Positions 18,410-62,653 of a DNA stretch of 64,000 nt are shown here, in pieces; the first letter of the stretch is position 1; each line of letters opens with the position of its first letter. The notes beneath the pieces were generated by a model that worked only from the letters and a program-made list of their open reading frames with translations, was not told the DNA's origin and did no database searches. Origin of the DNA: a phage. The stretch lies in sequence record PZ445442.1, one strand, 5' to 3'. The position numbers were made by a program, and so were the translations under genes.

Positions 18410-18760
18410 AGCAGAGAAATCTTTAGTCGTCTAATGTTTACTGTACGTTACTATATTAACTGAAATCATTAGATGACTAATAGAAAGATAAGAAATAATT
18501 AACAATACAATTATTTTATCTGTAACAATAAGGCAACTATGCAAACGAATGGCATGGCGCGACGGAGTCGCGACATAATATAAAAGCAGTAACCATCACC
18601 CCCGTGATAGTTTGTCTGCAAACTATTAATCAGATCATAGTTGCCTTGTATTTAGTTAATCATGACATAACAAGCAAGGCAACTATAGATCTTCTAATAG
18701 TTGCCCTGCTTTTATATTATGTCATAAATTATTAACATGCAAACGAATGGCATGGCTTAT
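18410..18760. repeat. non-coding repeat cluster (direct repeat ATGCAAACGAATGGCATGGC at 18538 and 18728; inverted GACATAATATAAAAGCAG/CTGCTTTTATATTATGTC; AAGGCAACTAT motifs in both orientations; palindrome ATAGTTTG-TCTG-CAAACTAT)
   Basis: Direct reading; no credible ORF. Confidence 0.55.
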
Positions 18761-19329
18761 AATTTTTGAGAAAATAGTCTATACGTGAACAGTAAGGCAT
18801 GCAATAGTAACAATTGTTATTGTATCCAGTGTGTTGAGTATGCCCAGTATGTCACCATTGTGTCCAGTATGTCAGACAAGTTTTCCTCCTCTTTGTCAAG
18901 TGCTGCATGAAAAATTTACAAACTGGTATGGTAGCATTTTTGCGGCCCTGTTTACATTCAGTAATGTATGTATAATCCTTGTTGTGTGGGCGTTTAGACG
19001 TCTAGACGGTTGGAAGTCTACAGGTCAATATCTAATCTATTGGCTGCTAACTATATCCCACACAAATAGTAAGAAATATGATTGTTATATGCGTAAACTG
19101 TAACTCATGTTATCAATCCCTGTATGTATCACCAGTGGTGCGCATAATGGGTATTATGTTAAATTGCCCGTAATGATAACTATTCTCACAATGATAGGTA
19201 TTCTCATTCACCCCAACAAAATAGGTTGCAAATGTTGTGCCACTGTGTGAACGGCCTCACCTATTAATTTGCCTCACTGCCTCGATATTTGAGAATTATT
19301 ATAAAAATGAGAAGTATTCCCATTCCGTC

Positions 19330-19630
19330 CGCCTGGCAGCACTCCAGTCGCTACGGCTCCTGACAGGGCAGCACTCCTGTAGGTCAGGTCAAAATCGGGG
19401 TAGAACTGGACCTGTTCAGATATTTCTGGCTGACTCTTCAGGTCTGTGTGGGAAAAGCCAACCTCTCCGGCGGGGCAGGGGAGGTAAATTAAAAAATTTA
19501 CGTGGTGTATGAAGAGCCCTTCAGGTAAGGCATGTATTATAGGATGAAACCCTCTTCAGGCATGATATTTGTGGGTGTGATATTTGCTGGAAAGCCAGAT
19601 ATGACGGGACTCCCGGCGGGGCAGGGGTAG
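19330..19630. repeat. short GC-rich direct repeats (GGCAGCACTCC x2; C(T)CCGGCGGGGCAGGGG at 19457 and 19609)
   Basis: Direct reading. Confidence 0.45.
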
Positions 19631-46309: not shown

Positions 46310-46768
46310 TTAGAAGTTTGTTTTTACACGTCCCTTTTCATCAACCTCGTTGTTGGCTAGAAGCGTTACAAAGTCTGTGAAACGGACATGAAGAACTCTT
46401 TTCTTATCAAGGTATCCTAAAGCCACCCCTGAGAAATTTAGCATCAAAGGGGCTAAAGAAGCTCTGGCACTGAAATGCTGTTGTTCTACCCTTCCAACAC
46501 CCTTAGTGTAGGATGGGTTAAGATTGTAAGTTCTGAATCCCAGTTTTGTTGGAGCTTTAGAATTAAAAACAACTTTATAGCGTTTCTTACTCAACTTATG
46601 CTCCAGGATAAGCATTCCCTTATCACCCTTGATAAGTTGAAAATCTGTAAAGTGCTCTTTTAATACGAAAGGTAGTGCCAGTCCCATCGCCTGCCCCCTT
46701 TGTACCGCTGTCTCACCAAAAGCTTTTGCATCAGTAAGTTCTTTGGTCAAGTCTATGCTTTTGATCAT
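46310..46768 (-). CDS. hypothetical protein
   Basis: 152-aa ORF. Confidence 0.45.
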   Translation of the reverse strand: MIKSIDLTKELTDAKAFGETAVQRGQAMGLALPFVLKEHFTDFQLIKGDKGMLILEHKLSKKRYKVVFNSKAPTKLGFRTYNLNPSYTKGVGRVEQQHFSARASLAPLMLNFSGVALGYLDKKRVLHVRFTDFVTLLANNEVDEKGRVKTNF

Positions 46769-56795: not shown

Positions 56796-57146
56796 TCAGT
56801 AGATGTTTTGTTTAATCTCTATTCCAAACTTCTTGAATGAGTCAGCAGCAAGCATAAATTTACGAGCTGCCGATGGATTAGAAGTATGCACGAAAATAAT
56901 CACGTTGTCAATAAGTGGTGGCTTTCCGAATACAAGTTTCTCCTCTAGCGCAGAGAAGCAGTCGTACCCTTCAAGCACTTCACCTAGATCATTGTCAAAA
57001 TACCACTCAGATACGCGTCTGTAGAGCTTTCTCTTATCATTAAGAAAATCCATAAACTCAGAAGAATTCTTTAGCCACAGAGCGTCTGGGAGTCCATAAT
57101 CTGACGGATCTCTAAAATCATCAAGCCACACAATCCACTTCTTCAT
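56796..57146 (-). CDS. hypothetical protein
   Basis: 116-aa ORF between RNA ligase and Sir2, 4-nt overlap with ligase. Confidence 0.45.
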   Translation of the reverse strand: MKKWIVWLDDFRDPSDYGLPDALWLKNSSEFMDFLNDKRKLYRRVSEWYFDNDLGEVLEGYDCFSALEEKLVFGKPPLIDNVIIFVHTSNPSAARKFMLAADSFKKFGIEIKQNIY

Positions 57147-58078: not shown

Positions 58079-58121
58079 TTTGTCAGTCTATCCTGCCACA
58101 CAAATAACCTAGTGTCAACAC

Positions 58122-58150
58122 TTGAAATTAACAAAACAGTTAGGTATACT
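58122..58150 (+). promoter_or_regulatory. sigma70-like promoter TTGAAA-N17-TATACT for kinase/phosphatase operon
   Basis: Hexamers and spacing read directly. Confidence 0.5.
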
Positions 58151-58178
58151 ACCGTTGAAATTAAAACGGAGGGTCACT

Positions 58179-58589
58179 ATGTTTAAAATGCTATATATCG
58201 TGCGTGGTCTACCAGGGTCTGGCAAATCAACACTGGCAAATGCGCTATCTTTAGAGGGTCTGTATCCACATTTTGAGAACGACATGTTCTGGTATGACGA
58301 TGACGGCAATTACAACTGGGATGCAAGTAAAGTAACACTCGCAGCAAAATGGTGCAAAGATAACGTAGAAGATATGATGCGTATGGGATACGACCGTATC
58401 GTGGTAAGTAATACGTTTACAAAAGAAAAACATGTGCAGGAATATGTTGACATGGCAATCAGTCATGGGTATAGTTATACCGTGATCGTGGTTGAAAACC
58501 GCCACGGTAATAAAAGCATTCATGATGTTCCAGACAAGGTTGTGGATCGTATGGAACGCCAGCTTAAAAACTGCATTAAACTTAAATGA
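58179..58589 (+). CDS. P-loop polynucleotide kinase-like protein
   Basis: Walker A GLPGSGKST; ATG 58179 with ACGGAGGG RBS; about 136 aa. Confidence 0.55.
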   Translation: MFKMLYIVRGLPGSGKSTLANALSLEGLYPHFENDMFWYDDDGNYNWDASKVTLAAKWCKDNVEDMMRMGYDRIVVSNTFTKEKHVQEYVDMAISHGYSYTVIVVENRHGNKSIHDVPDKVVDRMERQLKNCIKLK

Positions 58590-58596
58590 GGAATGT

Positions 58597-59151
58597 ATGA
58601 AATACTTTGTAACAAGCGACACACACTTTCTCCACCAGCAGGTCATGGAGTTTGATTCATGTCAAAAACACAGATCTCAGTATGATCACAATCTTGACAG
58701 TATGAATGCGGGAATCATCGCCGAGTGGAACTCTGTTGTGTCACCTGCAGACACTGTGTTCCACTTGGGAGATATTGCGTGCACTAATGATAAGAATATC
58801 AACAACTTACTTCCAGATATTCTAAATATGTTGAACGGACATATTATTCTTGTTCGTGGCAACCATGACACAAGGACGACTGTCAGAATTATGAAAGAGT
58901 TCGGTCATGAGGTTGTAGATTATTACGAGCTTCGCCACAACAAGAATTTGATCTGTATGAGCCATTACCAGTTTGCAAAGTGGAACAGAAAGCCTCACGG
59001 ATCAGTCCAACTGTTCGGTCATGCTCACGGAACCACACAACAGTTGTTTGGCAGGCAGCTTGATGTCGGTTGGGATGTGTGGGGGAGACTCTTACCATTA
59101 GAAGAGGCATACCGTATTGCAATGAGTTTTGATATTGACAGCAGGGAGTAA
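58597..59151 (+). CDS. calcineurin-like metallophosphoesterase
   Basis: Motifs DTHF, GDIA, GNHD, GHAHG; ATG 58597. Confidence 0.7.
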   Translation: MKYFVTSDTHFLHQQVMEFDSCQKHRSQYDHNLDSMNAGIIAEWNSVVSPADTVFHLGDIACTNDKNINNLLPDILNMLNGHIILVRGNHDTRTTVRIMKEFGHEVVDYYELRHNKNLICMSHYQFAKWNRKPHGSVQLFGHAHGTTQQLFGRQLDVGWDVWGRLLPLEEAYRIAMSFDIDSRE

Positions 59152-59198
59152 TCCCTGCTATTTTAAAGAAAATTGCCACACAAGGAGAATCAGGAGAT

Positions 59199-59549
59199 AT
59201 GAAAGATGGGGATAAGCTGCTATATCTTAAAGTCCCCCTTGAAATACTATCTATGTCAAAAGTTTTGAATGACACAACTGGGGAGGTTGTTGTTCTTGAC
59301 TTGTATGACAAGATCGTATACTGCTACCTGCACAACTGGTATAAGCTTGGAGGAAATTCACGCTTCACACCAAGCACAAGGAAAATTGCAGCAGATGTTG
59401 GGATAAAGAAAACAAAAGCAGCAGCGTGCGTTAAAACTTTAGAATGTGCAGGAGTGGTTGAAACATCCACACAAGGGAGAGGTAAAAGATGCACATTTTC
59501 CAAAGTTTTGCCACCAGAAGAAGTTATTCGGATGTCAACAACTGGTTAG
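59199..59549 (+). CDS. putative DNA-binding protein (winged-helix/HTH-like)
   Basis: 116-aa ORF, AAGGAGAATCAGGAG RBS; followed by iteron array. Confidence 0.4.
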   Translation: MKDGDKLLYLKVPLEILSMSKVLNDTTGEVVVLDLYDKIVYCYLHNWYKLGGNSRFTPSTRKIAADVGIKKTKAAACVKTLECAGVVETSTQGRGKRCTFSKVLPPEEVIRMSTTG

Positions 59550-59624
59550 ACCAGTAAAAACTTAAATATCTGTACTATAAGGATTCGTATGTTTTATGTT
59601 CGCCATGGAACGGATACTATTAAC

Positions 59625-59705
59625 TGTCCGTGATACGGACACTACTGTCCGTCACGCGGACACATCTGCCCGTAATACGGACACTAACTGTCCGTGATAC
59701 GGACA
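59625..59705. repeat. four direct copies (about 22-bp phasing) of palindromic site GTCCGTGATACGGACAC (GTCCGT-N3-ACGGAC), then AT-rich tract
   Basis: Copies at 59625, 59645, 59667, 59689. Confidence 0.8.
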
Positions 59706-60209
59706 CATAAAGAATATAACTAAAATAACTAAATAATAAAAAATAAAAGATCTAGTACTTATGGTACTAAGTACATATACTTAACTTATGTAGAATATAC
59801 TAGATCCCAAGTACCATGTTTTAAATTTATTACTTACTATGGGCAGTGTCGGCCCTTCATTGGCACTCGCCTACGAGGGGCGAGATGCCGGGCCTCCTTG
59901 GTGCACACAATAACAGAAGTGCATACATGCAGGTCTGTTAACATGTGTGGGAGCGAAGCTATAGCGCAGGCCAAAGGCCGAGCAATGATGTGGACCACCG
60001 ACGAAAGCTTGCCAGCGCCGTAAGGAGTCGGTTGAGAGTCTCCCGCGCGAGCTTGGATGAAGTTTATGTGTGGAAACTGACAAGAAGGCCCCTAAATCGC
60101 TCCACAGCTATATAAACTATACCAGGTAATGCAATCGCACCAGTTTGATAGAAAAGCTCGTTACAAAGCGATACAGTGAGTTTTTCTATAACTTGAAGAG
60201 GAGGCAGCT

Positions 60210-60788
60210 ATGGGTTCACGCAAAGATGACCGTGAAAAGATTGCAAAACGTTATCAGAATGAAGAACAGATGGAGAAAACTTTCAAGTGGAAGCCCGGTT
60301 TCCAGCGTAATCATTCTAACGCCCGTGATCGTAAGCATCCGGATAAGTGGCTAACACCGCCAAATGATGTCATGCAGGTTGGGGATGAGAAGGAGATGTC
60401 GCCTGGAAAAGATGGCAACTACATTCGCACTAAGGACGCTGGTCCAAAGGATGACAGCTATCTTGTAGATAAGGTTCTTGATGGTATCAATGTAGATGTT
60501 GACACTGCACGAAACCTTTTTCTTGGGTGGTATCGCACAGGTTTTTTCGACATCAAGGCTATTCGTCGTGTTTGTGATATTAAAAAGTCTGCATATGATG
60601 ACGACTCGTTACATCGCACCCTGAGACAATATTCAGAAAGATATGGTCATCCGGTTATCACTCTTGACGATGTTAACGAAGTGATGTATCATGCAGAGGT
60701 TGTTGCAGGAAGATTTGGTGATGCATATCTTGATATCCTTTCTGCAAAGGATGAGGTAATGTTAAATAAGATTTACTATGAACGCTGA
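60210..60788 (+). CDS. hypothetical protein
   Basis: 192-aa ORF with GAGGAGG RBS. Confidence 0.55.
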   Translation: MGSRKDDREKIAKRYQNEEQMEKTFKWKPGFQRNHSNARDRKHPDKWLTPPNDVMQVGDEKEMSPGKDGNYIRTKDAGPKDDSYLVDKVLDGINVDVDTARNLFLGWYRTGFFDIKAIRRVCDIKKSAYDDDSLHRTLRQYSERYGHPVITLDDVNEVMYHAEVVAGRFGDAYLDILSAKDEVMLNKIYYER

Positions 60789-60987
60789 GGAGCGCTTAAT
60801 GAACAACCCGGTAGCAAAGAACTGTAATAAGTTCAACAAGTCTGCAATTCACACTGACAGGAAAAAGAGCTGGTCTCCTGACATTGACGAGGAGCTTGAG
60901 AGTTACTTTGAAGACCTGGTCACTAATGCAGATGAGGTTGCGATTAAAGAATACGCAGACAGGAAGGATAAGGCCGGAATCTGTTGA
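60778..60987 (+). CDS. hypothetical protein
   Basis: 69-aa ORF overlapping upstream stop. Confidence 0.45.
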   Translation: MNAEERLMNNPVAKNCNKFNKSAIHTDRKKSWSPDIDEELESYFEDLVTNADEVAIKEYADRKDKAGIC

Positions 60988-61063
60988 CAAAAATAGTGTT
61001 ACCTGATAAGATCTGCAATATGATGTGATGCAATTTTAACTTACGAGGTCTACAGGTAATGCT

Positions 61064-61306: not shown

Positions 61307-61593
61307 GGTTGTTTTCGTGTATCATGATGAATATCCAATTTAAAGATGAATTTGATGGCTTTATCTCCGGATGCTTTGAAACAGGGTTCGGAGAAGGCTG
61401 AGTTCCCCTTAGAGGGCTTGATAGTGCACCACACTTAAAATGGTAGGGGCAGCCAGCACATGACGATGTGACCCCAGCCAACCTGTAATAAGGTCGAGCC
61501 AAAGTGCGGTAATGGGCTCTGGTAACCCACTTGTTGGGTCTTGCTGGTCCAGGACGCTGGACAAGTCGCAGGGAATACCACCCTGCGGCGAAC

Positions 61594-61622
61594 TTGACAA
61601 TCAGTATTTGCTATGATAAAAT
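61594..61622 (+). promoter_or_regulatory. sigma70-like promoter TTGACA-N17-TAAAAT with downstream palindrome TATCACGTGATA
   Basis: Read directly; palindrome 61627-61638 could be an operator. Confidence 0.55.
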
Positions 61623-61650
61623 CCACCTATCACGTGATAATGGAGGAAAC

Positions 61651-62554: not shown

Positions 62555-62653
62555 GCTAGGTAAGCCCTTTGGCAAGGGCGAGGATTTTTAATCCTGAAAA
62601 TAGACGAGGTAGTCGTTGAATACATAGGTGGTTCGATTCCATCACCTAGCACC
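62555..62653 (+). tRNA. atypical tRNA-like element (possible tRNA-Lys UUU with about 30-nt insertion in variable region; may be non-functional)
   Basis: Acceptor GCTAGGT/ACCTAGC 7/7, D-arm GCCC-TTTGGCAA-GGGC, T-arm GGTGG-TTCGATT-CCATC, but the anticodon arm is irregular and the element is about 97 nt. Confidence 0.4.

What the first reader, a model, noticed from the sequence alone, without database searches (positions are those of the whole stretch)
59199..59830. Iteron array of four palindromic sites plus AT-rich tract downstream of an HTH-like gene: candidate origin or operator array
Four copies of GTCCGT-N3-ACGGAC (one GCCCGT variant) are phased 20-22 bp apart (about two helical turns), followed by about 120 bp of AT-rich DNA with inverted repeats (GATCTAGTAC ... 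GTACTAGATC). This matches initiator-binding iterons with an adjacent unwinding element, or a multi-operator regulatory site; the upstream 116-aa protein is a plausible binder.
Basis: partly seen in the sequence, partly recalled or inferred. Interest (0 to 1): 0.65.

Follow-up and report, generated by a model that had tools for sequence, protein, structure and literature searches.

The report
Likely replication origin of rV5-like phages
Four phased palindromic repeats plus the most easily melted DNA in the genome lie beside a small gene related to a proven replication-initiator DNA-binding domain, so this is probably the unmapped replication origin of rV5-like E. coli phages, though nothing here has been tested at the bench.

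Summary
There are four 21/22-bp direct repeats at 59621-59706, each with a GYCCGY-N3-RCGGAC dyad, then 130 bp at 20% GC. The window is a Vequintavirus (rV5-like, 100% identical to phage EmilHeitz here).

Evidence for an origin:
- In the complete 137-kb genome of relative Gotham, the motif occurs only in this array.
- The AT tract is the least stable 100 bp of that genome.
- The cumulative GC-skew minimum and the genome-wide divergence of transcription lie 1.5 kb away.
- Repeats and AT tract change 4-5 times more slowly than third codon positions and the adjoining spacer.
- The 116-aa protein is homologous to PDB 4RO3 (E 3e-6 alone, 3.8e-15 as a family profile). 4RO3 is the DNA-binding domain of Vibrio PLE RepA, an initiator shown experimentally to bind semi-palindromic origin iterons.
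- The next best fold matches are staphylococcal RepA_N initiators.
- Distant homologues in three other phage lineages also sit beside their own dyad repeats.

Most likely this is an iteron origin with a minimal RepA_N-like origin binder (confidence 0.6). The main rival is an operator or roadblock array.

Against it: the protein lacks the C-terminal domain essential in known RepA_N initiators, and there is no experimental evidence. A packaging site is excluded, because the terminal repeats map 40 kb away.

The parts
59135..59164 (+). Sigma-70-like promoter (TTGACA-18-TATTTT with a TG extension) directly upstream of the 116-aa gene. Probably early, host-RNAP-driven expression.
   Evidence: The same site is annotated 'Sigma70-type promoter P76' in rV5 RefSeq and predicted in Gotham.
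59199..59549 (+). Gene for the 116-aa winged-helix protein (rV5 gp075). It is a stand-alone homologue of the RepA_N-type initiator DNA-binding domain and the proposed origin binder.
   Evidence: PHROG 12838 'replication initiation protein', E 5e-80. Pfam DUF6945 27.4 bits (cut-off 28) and HTH_36 24.5 bits (cut-off 25). PDB 4RO3 at E 3e-6 alone and 3.8e-15 as a profile. AF2 model pLDDT 75; the top Foldseek hits are 4RO3, 4PQL, 4PT7 and 5KBJ.
59550..59620 (.). Spacer between the stop codon and the first repeat. It evolves at the neutral rate and serves as an internal control.
   Evidence: 21 of 71 columns vary, the same as third codon positions (175 of 625; Fisher p=0.78).
59621..59706 (.). Iteron array: four 21/22-bp direct repeats, each a dyad TGTCCGY-N3-RCGGACA (cores at 59626-59640, 59647-59661, 59668-59682, 59690-59704). 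Spacing is two helical turns.
   Evidence: Only 5 of 86 columns are substituted across 12 genomes, against 28% of third codon positions (p=1e-6). Phage nomo has three copies. This is the only cluster of the motif in the 137-kb Gotham genome.
59707..59836 (.). AT-rich tract (20% GC), the proposed DNA-unwinding element. It contains the 9-bp inverted repeat GATCTAGTA / TACTAGATC (59749-59757 / 59798-59806), the inverted repeat GTACTTA / TAAGTAC (59755-59761 / 59768-59774), two GATC sites and four GTAC sites.
   Evidence: Lowest-GC and least stable stretch of the window at 50-130 bp. Lowest-GC 100- and 130-bp window and least stable 100 bp of the whole Gotham genome. 9 of 130 columns vary (p=4e-8 against third positions). 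No consensus sigma-70 promoter. No DnaA box or IHF site.
59837..60105 (+). GC-rich (52-62%) conserved non-coding element immediately after the AT tract. It may be a structured RNA. Whether it belongs to the origin is open.
   Evidence: No codon-phase bias. RNA fold z = -2.2. Only 1 compensatory pair. No Rfam family. Restricted to the genus and co-occurs with the gene.
58079..58140 (.). Divergent transcription switch and cumulative GC-skew minimum, 1.5 kb left of the repeats.
   Evidence: Window minimum at 58137. Genome-wide minimum at Gotham 98397. Gene orientation.

Best explanation
This is the replication origin of the phage, or one of its origins, built like an iteron origin.

Proposed mechanism:
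1. The 116-aa winged-helix protein is made early from a sigma-70 promoter.
2. It binds as dimers to the four dyad-symmetric repeats. Their 21-22-bp phasing puts all dimers on one face of the helix.
3. The resulting bent nucleoprotein complex helps open the adjacent 130-bp AT tract.
4. The phage's T7-type primase-helicase and PolA-type polymerase enter on that tract.
5. Transcription from the upstream promoters probably runs through the site and may assist opening.

Shown here: the repeats, their uniqueness and their conservation; the extreme instability of the AT tract; and homology of the protein to the iteron-binding domain of a proven initiator.

Inferred: binding, dimer stoichiometry, melting and replisome entry.
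For: (1) Homology. The protein matches PDB 4RO3 at E 3e-6 over residues 12-89. The 22-sequence family profile matches it at 3.8e-15. The AF2 model (pLDDT 75) has 4RO3, 4PQL, 4PT7 and 5KBJ as its seven best Foldseek PDB matches, ahead of generic repressors. 4RO3 is the N-terminal domain of PLE RepA. PLE RepA binds semi-palindromic iterons by EMSA, is required for replication together with those iterons, and works with the T7-type replisome of phage ICP1 (PMC7145576). Its DNA-binding domain covaries with the origin (PMC8263062). pSK41 Rep binds four Rep boxes through the same kind of domain (PMC5703833).

(2) Architecture. There are four same-orientation dyad repeats at 21, 21 and 22 bp. They abut the lowest-GC, least stable DNA of the window and of the complete 137-kb Gotham genome. 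The motif occurs nowhere else in that genome.

(3) Genome context. The global cumulative GC-skew minimum lies 1.45 kb away. Nearly all genes point away from it toward both physical ends.

(4) Selection. Repeats vary at 5 of 86 columns and the AT tract at 9 of 130. Third codon positions vary at 175 of 625 and the adjoining spacer at 21 of 71 (p from 1e-6 to 4e-5).

(5) Family-level co-occurrence. Homologues at 21-30% identity each sit next to their own dyad repeats, near a divergent switch. These are phiPMW (3x GGACA-N3-TGTCC), Henunavirus (2x TCAATTTGAG..TAGGC next to an AT-rich tract) and an uncultured lineage (TACCT-N3-AGGTA; one locus is 1.4 kb upstream of a PolA gene).

(6) Longer homologues carry acidic tails ending in ..APF or ..EPF. 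From general knowledge, these resemble the partner-binding tip of SSB.

(7) The AT tract has no consensus promoter, although this phage's roughly 50 predicted promoters are near-consensus TTGACA-N17-TAtAAT.
Against: - There is no experimental evidence for binding or initiation in any rV5-like phage. The rV5 genome paper could not define an origin.
- The protein is only the DNA-binding domain. The C-terminal domain that is essential in pSK41 Rep, and that is thought to recruit the replisome in PLE RepA, is absent. No neighbouring gene resembles the C-terminal extensions of the longer homologues.
- The same domain is reused outside initiation (ICP1 Odn nuclease), and DnaD-NTD does not bind DNA.
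- GC skew in this genome follows transcription direction, so the skew minimum is not independent evidence.
- In phiPMW and Henunavirus the repeats lie just upstream of the gene, which equally fits autoregulation.
- Pfam RepA_N itself is not hit, and the HTH_36 and DUF6945 scores fall just under their cut-offs.
Confidence: 0.6

Rival explanations
1. The array is a set of operators and the 116-aa protein is a transcription factor. It would act as a repressor or roadblock that tunes read-through into the downstream GC-rich element and gp73, or it would control a promoter hidden in the AT tract. Replication would start elsewhere, or without a dedicated initiator.
For: Winged-helix proteins are mostly regulators, and weaker matches go to CodY, SlyA/MarR and LexA. 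Many records annotate the protein as 'putative transcriptional regulator'. No terminator separates the gene from the array, so RNA polymerase probably crosses it. In Henunavirus and phiPMW the repeats lie between an AT-rich or promoter-like stretch and the gene's own start, the classic autoregulation layout. PhagePromoter placed an 8-bp late-type motif in the AT tract of Gotham.
Against: The best sequence and fold matches are initiator domains, not repressors. No sigma-70-type promoter lies in or beside the array, although this phage's predicted promoters are near consensus. Four same-orientation sites next to the least stable DNA of the genome is not a usual operator layout. The AT tract is conserved in sequence over 130 bp, far more than one promoter needs.
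Confidence: 0.22
2. The repeats act at the RNA level. Four short hairpins at the 3' end of the gene's mRNA would act as stabilisers or processing sites, like REP elements.
For: Each unit can form a 6-7-bp stem with a 3-nt loop, and it is probably transcribed. One substitution (59652 T/C opposite G) keeps pairing.
Against: Copy 3 has a C-A mismatch inside the stem. Natural variants put C opposite A at the loop-closing pair of copy 4 (SYGMH1 and L007) and inside the stem of copy 1 (L007). No U-run follows. Strict two-turn phasing and the adjacent conserved AT tract are unexplained by this model. The neighbouring gene encodes a DNA-binding domain whose homologues recognise exactly this kind of site.
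Confidence: 0.05
3. The array is a DNA-packaging recognition site (pac or cos), or marks the genome ends.
For: Terminase recognition sites are often repeat arrays. The large terminase gene lies about 4 kb downstream. Three metagenomic contigs end inside or just after the array.
Against: Phage Gotham has defined 459-bp terminal repeats (PMC7471380). They map to window 18875-19333, 40 kb from the array. The three contig ends fall at different positions in or beside the array, which indicates assembly breaks. The adjacent protein is not terminase-like.
Confidence: 0.03

Closest known systems
PLE RepA and the PLE origin (Vibrio cholerae phage satellite; PDB 4RO3; Barth et al., NAR 2020 and eLife 2021)
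   Same: The DNA-binding domain is homologous (E 3e-6 alone, 3.8e-15 as a profile; best fold match). Its target is a short array of semi-palindromic direct repeats in non-coding DNA. It operates with a phage T7-type replisome (PolA plus primase-helicase), which the rV5 paper also reports for rV5 (gp228, gp230).
   Different: PLE RepA has a conserved C-terminal domain, whereas this protein is the N-terminal domain alone. PLE has three repeats of about 30 bp with 13-bp arms around a poly-A centre. Here there are four (sometimes three) 21-bp units with 6-7-bp arms and a 3-bp non-A centre. PLE is a satellite; this is the phage's own genome.
Staphylococcal RepA_N plasmids (pSK41, pTZ2162 Rep; PDB 4PQL, 4PT7, 5KBJ)
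   Same: The winged-helix N-terminal fold is the same (Foldseek E 5e-4 to 5e-3). pSK41 has four Rep boxes bound by that domain, with DNA bending (PMC5703833).
   Different: Their origin lies inside the rep gene. An essential C-terminal domain binds host DnaG. Pfam RepA_N does not score on this protein. The hosts are Firmicutes.
Phage lambda ori with O protein (from general knowledge, not tested here)
   Same: Four dyad-symmetric iterons of about 19 bp are followed by an AT-rich tract. They are bound by dimers of a winged-helix N-terminal domain and sit inside an early transcription unit.
   Different: Lambda ori lies within the O gene. O has a C-terminal domain that recruits P-DnaB. Pfam Phage_rep_O is not hit. 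This phage encodes its own replisome.
HTH_36 (PF13730) initiator domains, e.g. pPR9 Rep
   Same: The protein scores 24.5 bits on HTH_36, and relatives P0009 and P0011 pass the cut-off. In pPR9 an HTH_36 domain replaces RepA_N and supports autonomous replication (PMC5703833).
   Different: The score here is just below the curated cut-off, and there is no attached C-terminal domain.

Membership tests
RepA_N-type initiator plus iteron origin (PLE RepA, pSK41 Rep) | Winged-helix N-terminal DNA-binding domain homologous to RepA_N-type NTDs | tested here: met
   4RO3 at E 3e-6 and 3.8e-15 as a profile. Foldseek top 7 are 4RO3, 4PQL, 4PT7 and 5KBJ.
RepA_N-type initiator plus iteron origin (PLE RepA, pSK41 Rep) | Match to the Pfam RepA_N model (PF06970) | tested here: not met
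   PF06970 is not among the Pfam hits at E up to 1. PLE RepA itself was assigned to the family by structure, not by sequence.
RepA_N-type initiator plus iteron origin (PLE RepA, pSK41 Rep) | C-terminal domain needed for replication or replisome recruitment | tested here: not met
   The protein is 116 aa and ends about 15 residues after the wing. Neighbouring ORFs show no similarity to the C-terminal extensions of the longer homologues.
RepA_N-type initiator plus iteron origin (PLE RepA, pSK41 Rep) | Array of semi-palindromic direct repeats at or near the rep gene | tested here: met
   Four units at 59621-59706, starting 72 bp after the stop codon.
RepA_N-type initiator plus iteron origin (PLE RepA, pSK41 Rep) | Inverted sub-repeats converging on a poly-A tract | tested here: not met
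   The centres are GAT, CAC, AAT and GAT. The feature is as described in PMC7145576.
RepA_N-type initiator plus iteron origin (PLE RepA, pSK41 Rep) | Protein binds the repeats, and both are required for replication | not testable with these tools
   Needs EMSA, deletions and marker-frequency analysis.
Iteron origin in general (repeats plus DNA-unwinding element) | AT-rich, easily melted tract directly beside the repeats | tested here: met
   Lowest-GC and least stable stretch of the window at 50-130 bp, and lowest-GC 100/130 bp and least stable 100 bp of the 137-kb Gotham genome.
Iteron origin in general (repeats plus DNA-unwinding element) | Host-factor sites (DnaA box, IHF) as in many plasmid origins | tested here: not met
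   No TTWTNCACA or WATCAANNNNTTR with up to 1 mismatch in 59500-59900. This is not obligatory for a phage with its own replisome.
Lambda-type ori with O protein | Phage_rep_O domain, and origin inside the initiator gene | tested here: not met
   No PF04492 hit. The array lies downstream of the gene.
Operator array of a wHTH repressor | Sites overlap or flank a promoter that they control | tested here: inconclusive
   No sigma-70-type promoter between the gene's stop codon (59549) and 60300. There is only an 8-bp late-type motif predicted by others. No transcript data are available.
Packaging site or genome terminus | Coincides with the physical ends or terminal repeats | tested here: not met
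   The Gotham terminal repeats map to window 18875-19333.
Pfam DUF6945 / HTH_36 | Score at or above the curated cut-off | tested here: inconclusive
   27.4 against 28 and 24.5 against 25 for this protein. Relative P0011 passes both models and P0009 passes HTH_36.

The most novel reading that the evidence does not exclude
The locus is a composite origin in which a domain-minimal RepA_N-like protein has no replisome-recruiting part. It would only shape and open DNA. Priming or opening would come from transcription running through the repeats and AT tract into the conserved 270-nt GC-rich non-coding element. That element would form a stable R-loop or primer RNA for the T7-type replisome. This would be a hybrid of protein-iteron and RNA-primed origins in a large lytic coliphage.
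Probability: 0.12. Interest if true: 0.7.

Novelty: new member of a known kind. Interest (0 to 1): 0.45.

Why it matters
rV5-like phages (Vequintavirus) are widely used in E. coli O157 biocontrol, in therapy cocktails and in the BASEL reference collection. Their origin of replication has never been mapped, and the 2013 genome paper tried skew analysis and could not define one.

This locus gives a precise 300-bp candidate and a candidate binder, testable with simple experiments.

If confirmed, it would be, as far as the literature searched here shows, the first RepA_N-like initiator serving a lytic phage's own genome in a Gram-negative host. It would also show that the DNA-binding domain alone can serve as the origin-recognition factor for a T7-type replisome. 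Finally, it would provide a handle for engineering phage-dependent replicons.

Tried and rejected
- Packaging site or terminus: rejected, because the Gotham terminal repeats map 40 kb away. Contigs ending in or beside the array break at different positions, so they are assembly artefacts.
- RNA hairpins: no consistent compensatory change.
- Host-factor sites (DnaA, IHF): none found.
- A split initiator with its C-terminal part encoded nearby: no similarity between neighbouring ORFs and the C-terminal extensions of longer homologues.
- Known RNA family for the repeats or the GC-rich element: none.
- The ORF that rV5 annotates as gp074 inside the GC-rich element: no codon-phase signal.
- Satellites or plasmids carrying the same repeats or gene: none in 5,426 E. 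coli genomes. The single 'plasmid' hit is itself an rV5-like phage genome.
- IMG/VR searches: nothing for the rV5-type protein and only four Henunavirus-type loci.
- Single-sequence AlphaFold was uninformative (pLDDT 39) until a 21-sequence alignment was used.
- Literature searches found no paper linking rV5-like phages to iterons or a mapped origin.

Full report
**What the window is.** The region 58100-61000 is 100% identical to Escherichia phage EmilHeitz and 98-99.9% identical to about 120 other Vequintavirus (rV5-like) genomes. In these records the 116-aa gene is labelled 'putative transcriptional regulator', 'DNA-binding protein', 'hypothetical protein' or, in RefSeq, 'replication initiation protein'. 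The repeats appear at most as an unnamed 'repeat_region'. The rV5 genome paper tried to find the origin by skew analysis and reported only four skew changes tied to transcription direction (PMC3606486).

**The observation.**
- The repeat finder gives four 22-nt direct repeats at 59621, 59642, 59663 and 59685, with spacing 21, 21 and 22 bp.
- Each repeat holds a dyad GYCCGY-N3-RCGGAC, extendable to TGTCCGT-N3-ACGGACA.
- The degenerate pattern is expected 0.22 times per window by chance. It occurs at these four sites, plus one 1-mismatch site at 46373 that I treat as chance.
- The following 130 bp (59707-59836) are 20% GC. They are the lowest-GC and thermodynamically least stable stretch of the window at 50-130 bp.
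- The tract also holds four GTAC sites, against 0.24 expected, and two GATC sites.

**Uniqueness and genome context.** I assembled the whole genome of phage Gotham (137,025 bp). Its physical ends are defined by 459-bp terminal repeats (PMC7471380).
- The motif occurs only in this four-site array.
- The adjacent AT tract is the lowest-GC 100- and 130-bp window and the least stable 100 bp of the entire genome.
- The global cumulative GC-skew minimum (98,397) lies 1.45 kb from the array, at the point where transcription diverges.
- Apart from one 7-kb block and one small ORF, all genes point away from that point toward the two ends.
- The skew follows transcription, so I count it only as consistent evidence.
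- The terminal repeats map to window 18875-19333, which removes the packaging-site reading.

**Selection.** I aligned 12 genomes, down to 90% identity, over 2.7 kb.
- Third codon positions of the four flanking genes vary at 175 of 625 columns.
- The 71-bp spacer between the stop codon and the first repeat varies at 21 of 71 columns, which is indistinguishable (p=0.78).
- The repeats have substitutions at only 5 of 86 columns (p=1e-6).
- The AT tract varies at 9 of 130 columns (p=4e-8).
- Both parts are therefore constrained in sequence, not just in composition.
- Variable repeat positions are the 3-bp centre and the innermost or second arm base. CTG..CCG...CGGACAC is invariant.
- Phage nomo has exactly one 21-bp unit fewer, so three units are compatible with viability.
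- Variants do not preserve hairpin pairing, which argues against an RNA-level role.

**The protein.**
- Pfam gives near-threshold hits to DUF6945 and HTH_36.
- PHROGs place it in phrog_12838, 'replication initiation protein', with weaker hits to three other initiator PHROGs.
- It is nearly confined to the genus: tblastn and the 5.8-billion-protein search find only relatives of at least 87% identity.
- An exhaustive HMMER scan of 1.8 billion representatives adds only a few distant relatives. A profile search brings the family to 21 clusters.
- The single sequence matches PDB 4RO3 at E 3e-6, and the family profile matches it at 3.8e-15.
- An AlphaFold model built on the alignment (pLDDT 75, pTM 0.70) finds 4RO3 first. 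Staphylococcal RepA N-terminal domains come next, including a Rep-DNA complex, and generic winged-helix repressors only after that.

**What the homologues are known to do.**
- 4RO3 is the N-terminal domain of RepA of the Vibrio cholerae satellite PLE. RepA and a set of semi-palindromic iterons are necessary and, with phage ICP1's replisome, sufficient for PLE replication. RepA shifts the iteron probe in EMSA (PMC7145576).
- The DNA-binding domain covaries with the origin among PLEs. The conserved C-terminal domain is thought to recruit the replisome (PMC8263062).
- pSK41 Rep binds four Rep boxes with the equivalent domain and bends DNA. Its C-terminal domain is essential and binds DnaG (PMC5703833).

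**Relatives elsewhere.** Homologues at 21-30% identity all lie at or near a divergent transcription switch. The phiPMW and Henunavirus loci adjoin RNA-ligase, kinase and phosphoesterase genes as in rV5, and one uncultured locus (L017) carries an AAA_33 kinase and an RNA-ligase gene 1-2 kb downstream. Each has its own nearby dyad repeats.

| Lineage | Protein | Nearby repeats |
|---|---|---|
| Pseudomonas phage phiPMW | PMW_115 | Three GGACA-AAA-TGTCC units, then a purine/AT-rich stretch |
| Erwinia Henunavirus phages | gp227 type | Two TCAATTTGAG..TAGGC units, 23 bp apart, beside an AT-rich tract |
| Uncultured lineage | 182-217 aa | TACCT-N3-AGGTA sites about 108 bp apart; one locus has PolA 1.4 kb downstream |

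The longer proteins end in acidic ..APF or ..EPF tails. From general knowledge, these resemble the partner-binding tip of SSB. This co-occurrence supports the inference that the protein recognises the adjacent repeats. It does not separate origin from autoregulation, because in two lineages the repeats sit just upstream of the gene.

**Promoters.** The scan finds one sigma-70-like site in 59000-60300, upstream of the gene. This is rV5's annotated P76. The phage's roughly 50 predicted promoters are near-consensus TTGACA-N17-TAtAAT, and none lies in the AT tract. Only an 8-bp late-type motif was predicted there by others. No terminator follows the gene. Transcription therefore probably crosses the array. 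That fits transcriptional activation of an origin (known for lambda, from general knowledge) but also fits a roadblock model.

**Weighing.** I favour an iteron origin with a minimal RepA_N-like origin binder (0.6). The reasons are the homology to a proven iteron-binding initiator domain, the canonical repeats-plus-unwinding-element layout, genome-wide uniqueness, purifying selection on both parts, and family-level co-occurrence.

The main weakness is the missing C-terminal domain. Known RepA_N initiators need it. The domain is also reused outside initiation (Odn), and its structural relative DnaD-NTD does not bind DNA. A plausible answer, by inference only, is that a T7-type primase-helicase can load on opened DNA without a loader, so shaping and melting may be enough.

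The operator or roadblock reading keeps 0.22. RNA hairpins get 0.05 and a packaging site 0.03. The remainder covers other DNA-binding roles.

**Novelty.** The kind of system is well known (lambda ori/O, plasmid iterons, PLE RepA). The protein already carries an automated 'replication initiation protein' label. What is new is the link between that protein, the specific repeats and the unwinding element in this phage genus, the homology to PLE RepA, and the domain-minimal form of the binder. I rate it a new member of a known kind, with interest 0.45. It would not surprise a specialist, but it turns an unanswered question for a much-used phage group into a simple experiment.

Noticed in passing
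window 59837-60105: A GC-rich (52-62%), ORF-free, conserved element lies directly after the AT tract. The ORF annotated there in rV5 (gp074) shows no codon-phase bias. There is no Rfam hit. The fold z-score is -2.2 and there is only one compensatory pair. It is genus-restricted and always accompanies the 116-aa gene. It is a candidate structured RNA.
   Followed up: partly
window 61350-61640: A second GC-rich (53-57%) stretch lies upstream of the 61650 ORF, with no convincing coding frame. It may be another non-coding RNA.
   Followed up: no
window 18875-19333 (and 18432-18531, 19865): The 459-bp direct terminal repeat of phage Gotham maps here, so the physical genome ends lie inside this window. 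They sit next to the second most AT-rich tract and the cumulative GC-skew maximum.
   Followed up: partly
window 62555-62653: A 99-nt tRNA-like gene inside the tRNA cluster. ARAGORN reports a 4-base anticodon loop call (atcc), and the Rfam tRNA score is only 35.5 bits. Other records call it tRNA-Lys or 'tRNA-OTHER'.
   Followed up: no
L021 (phage nomo) 1523-1586; window 59621-59706: Natural copy-number polymorphism: nomo has three repeat units, an exact 21-bp unit deletion. Several other records show the same 21-bp-shorter match but were not inspected.
   Followed up: partly
GenBank MG0656xx records: Eighteen records named 'Campylobacter phage' are about 99% or more identical to E. coli rV5-like phages across this locus. 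This suggests mislabelling or contamination of those entries.
   Followed up: no
CP057073.1 102789-103136: A 137.6-kb E. coli 'plasmid' from cattle faeces is an rV5-like phage genome. It may reflect a carrier state or co-assembled phage.
   Followed up: no
P0009, P0011, P0016, P0021, P0023 C-termini; L018 4001-4588: Longer homologues of the protein end in acidic tails ..EAPF, ..DAPF or ..EEPF that resemble the SSB C-terminal tip. One such gene sits 1.4 kb upstream of a PolA gene.
   Followed up: partly
L015 2337-2413 versus window 59621-59706: The phiPMW sites (GGACA-N3-TGTCC) and the rV5 sites (TGTCCGT-N3-ACGGACA) share the pentamer TGTCC/GGACA in opposite arrangement. In rV5 the junctions between units also read GGACA-N4/5-TGTCC (TGCCC at one junction), so the true register of binding is ambiguous.
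   Followed up: no
window 56796-57146 and 55299-56787: A cREC_REC-domain protein lies next to two Sir2-like genes, just left of the divergent switch. They may be anti-defence or NAD-related functions.
   Followed up: no
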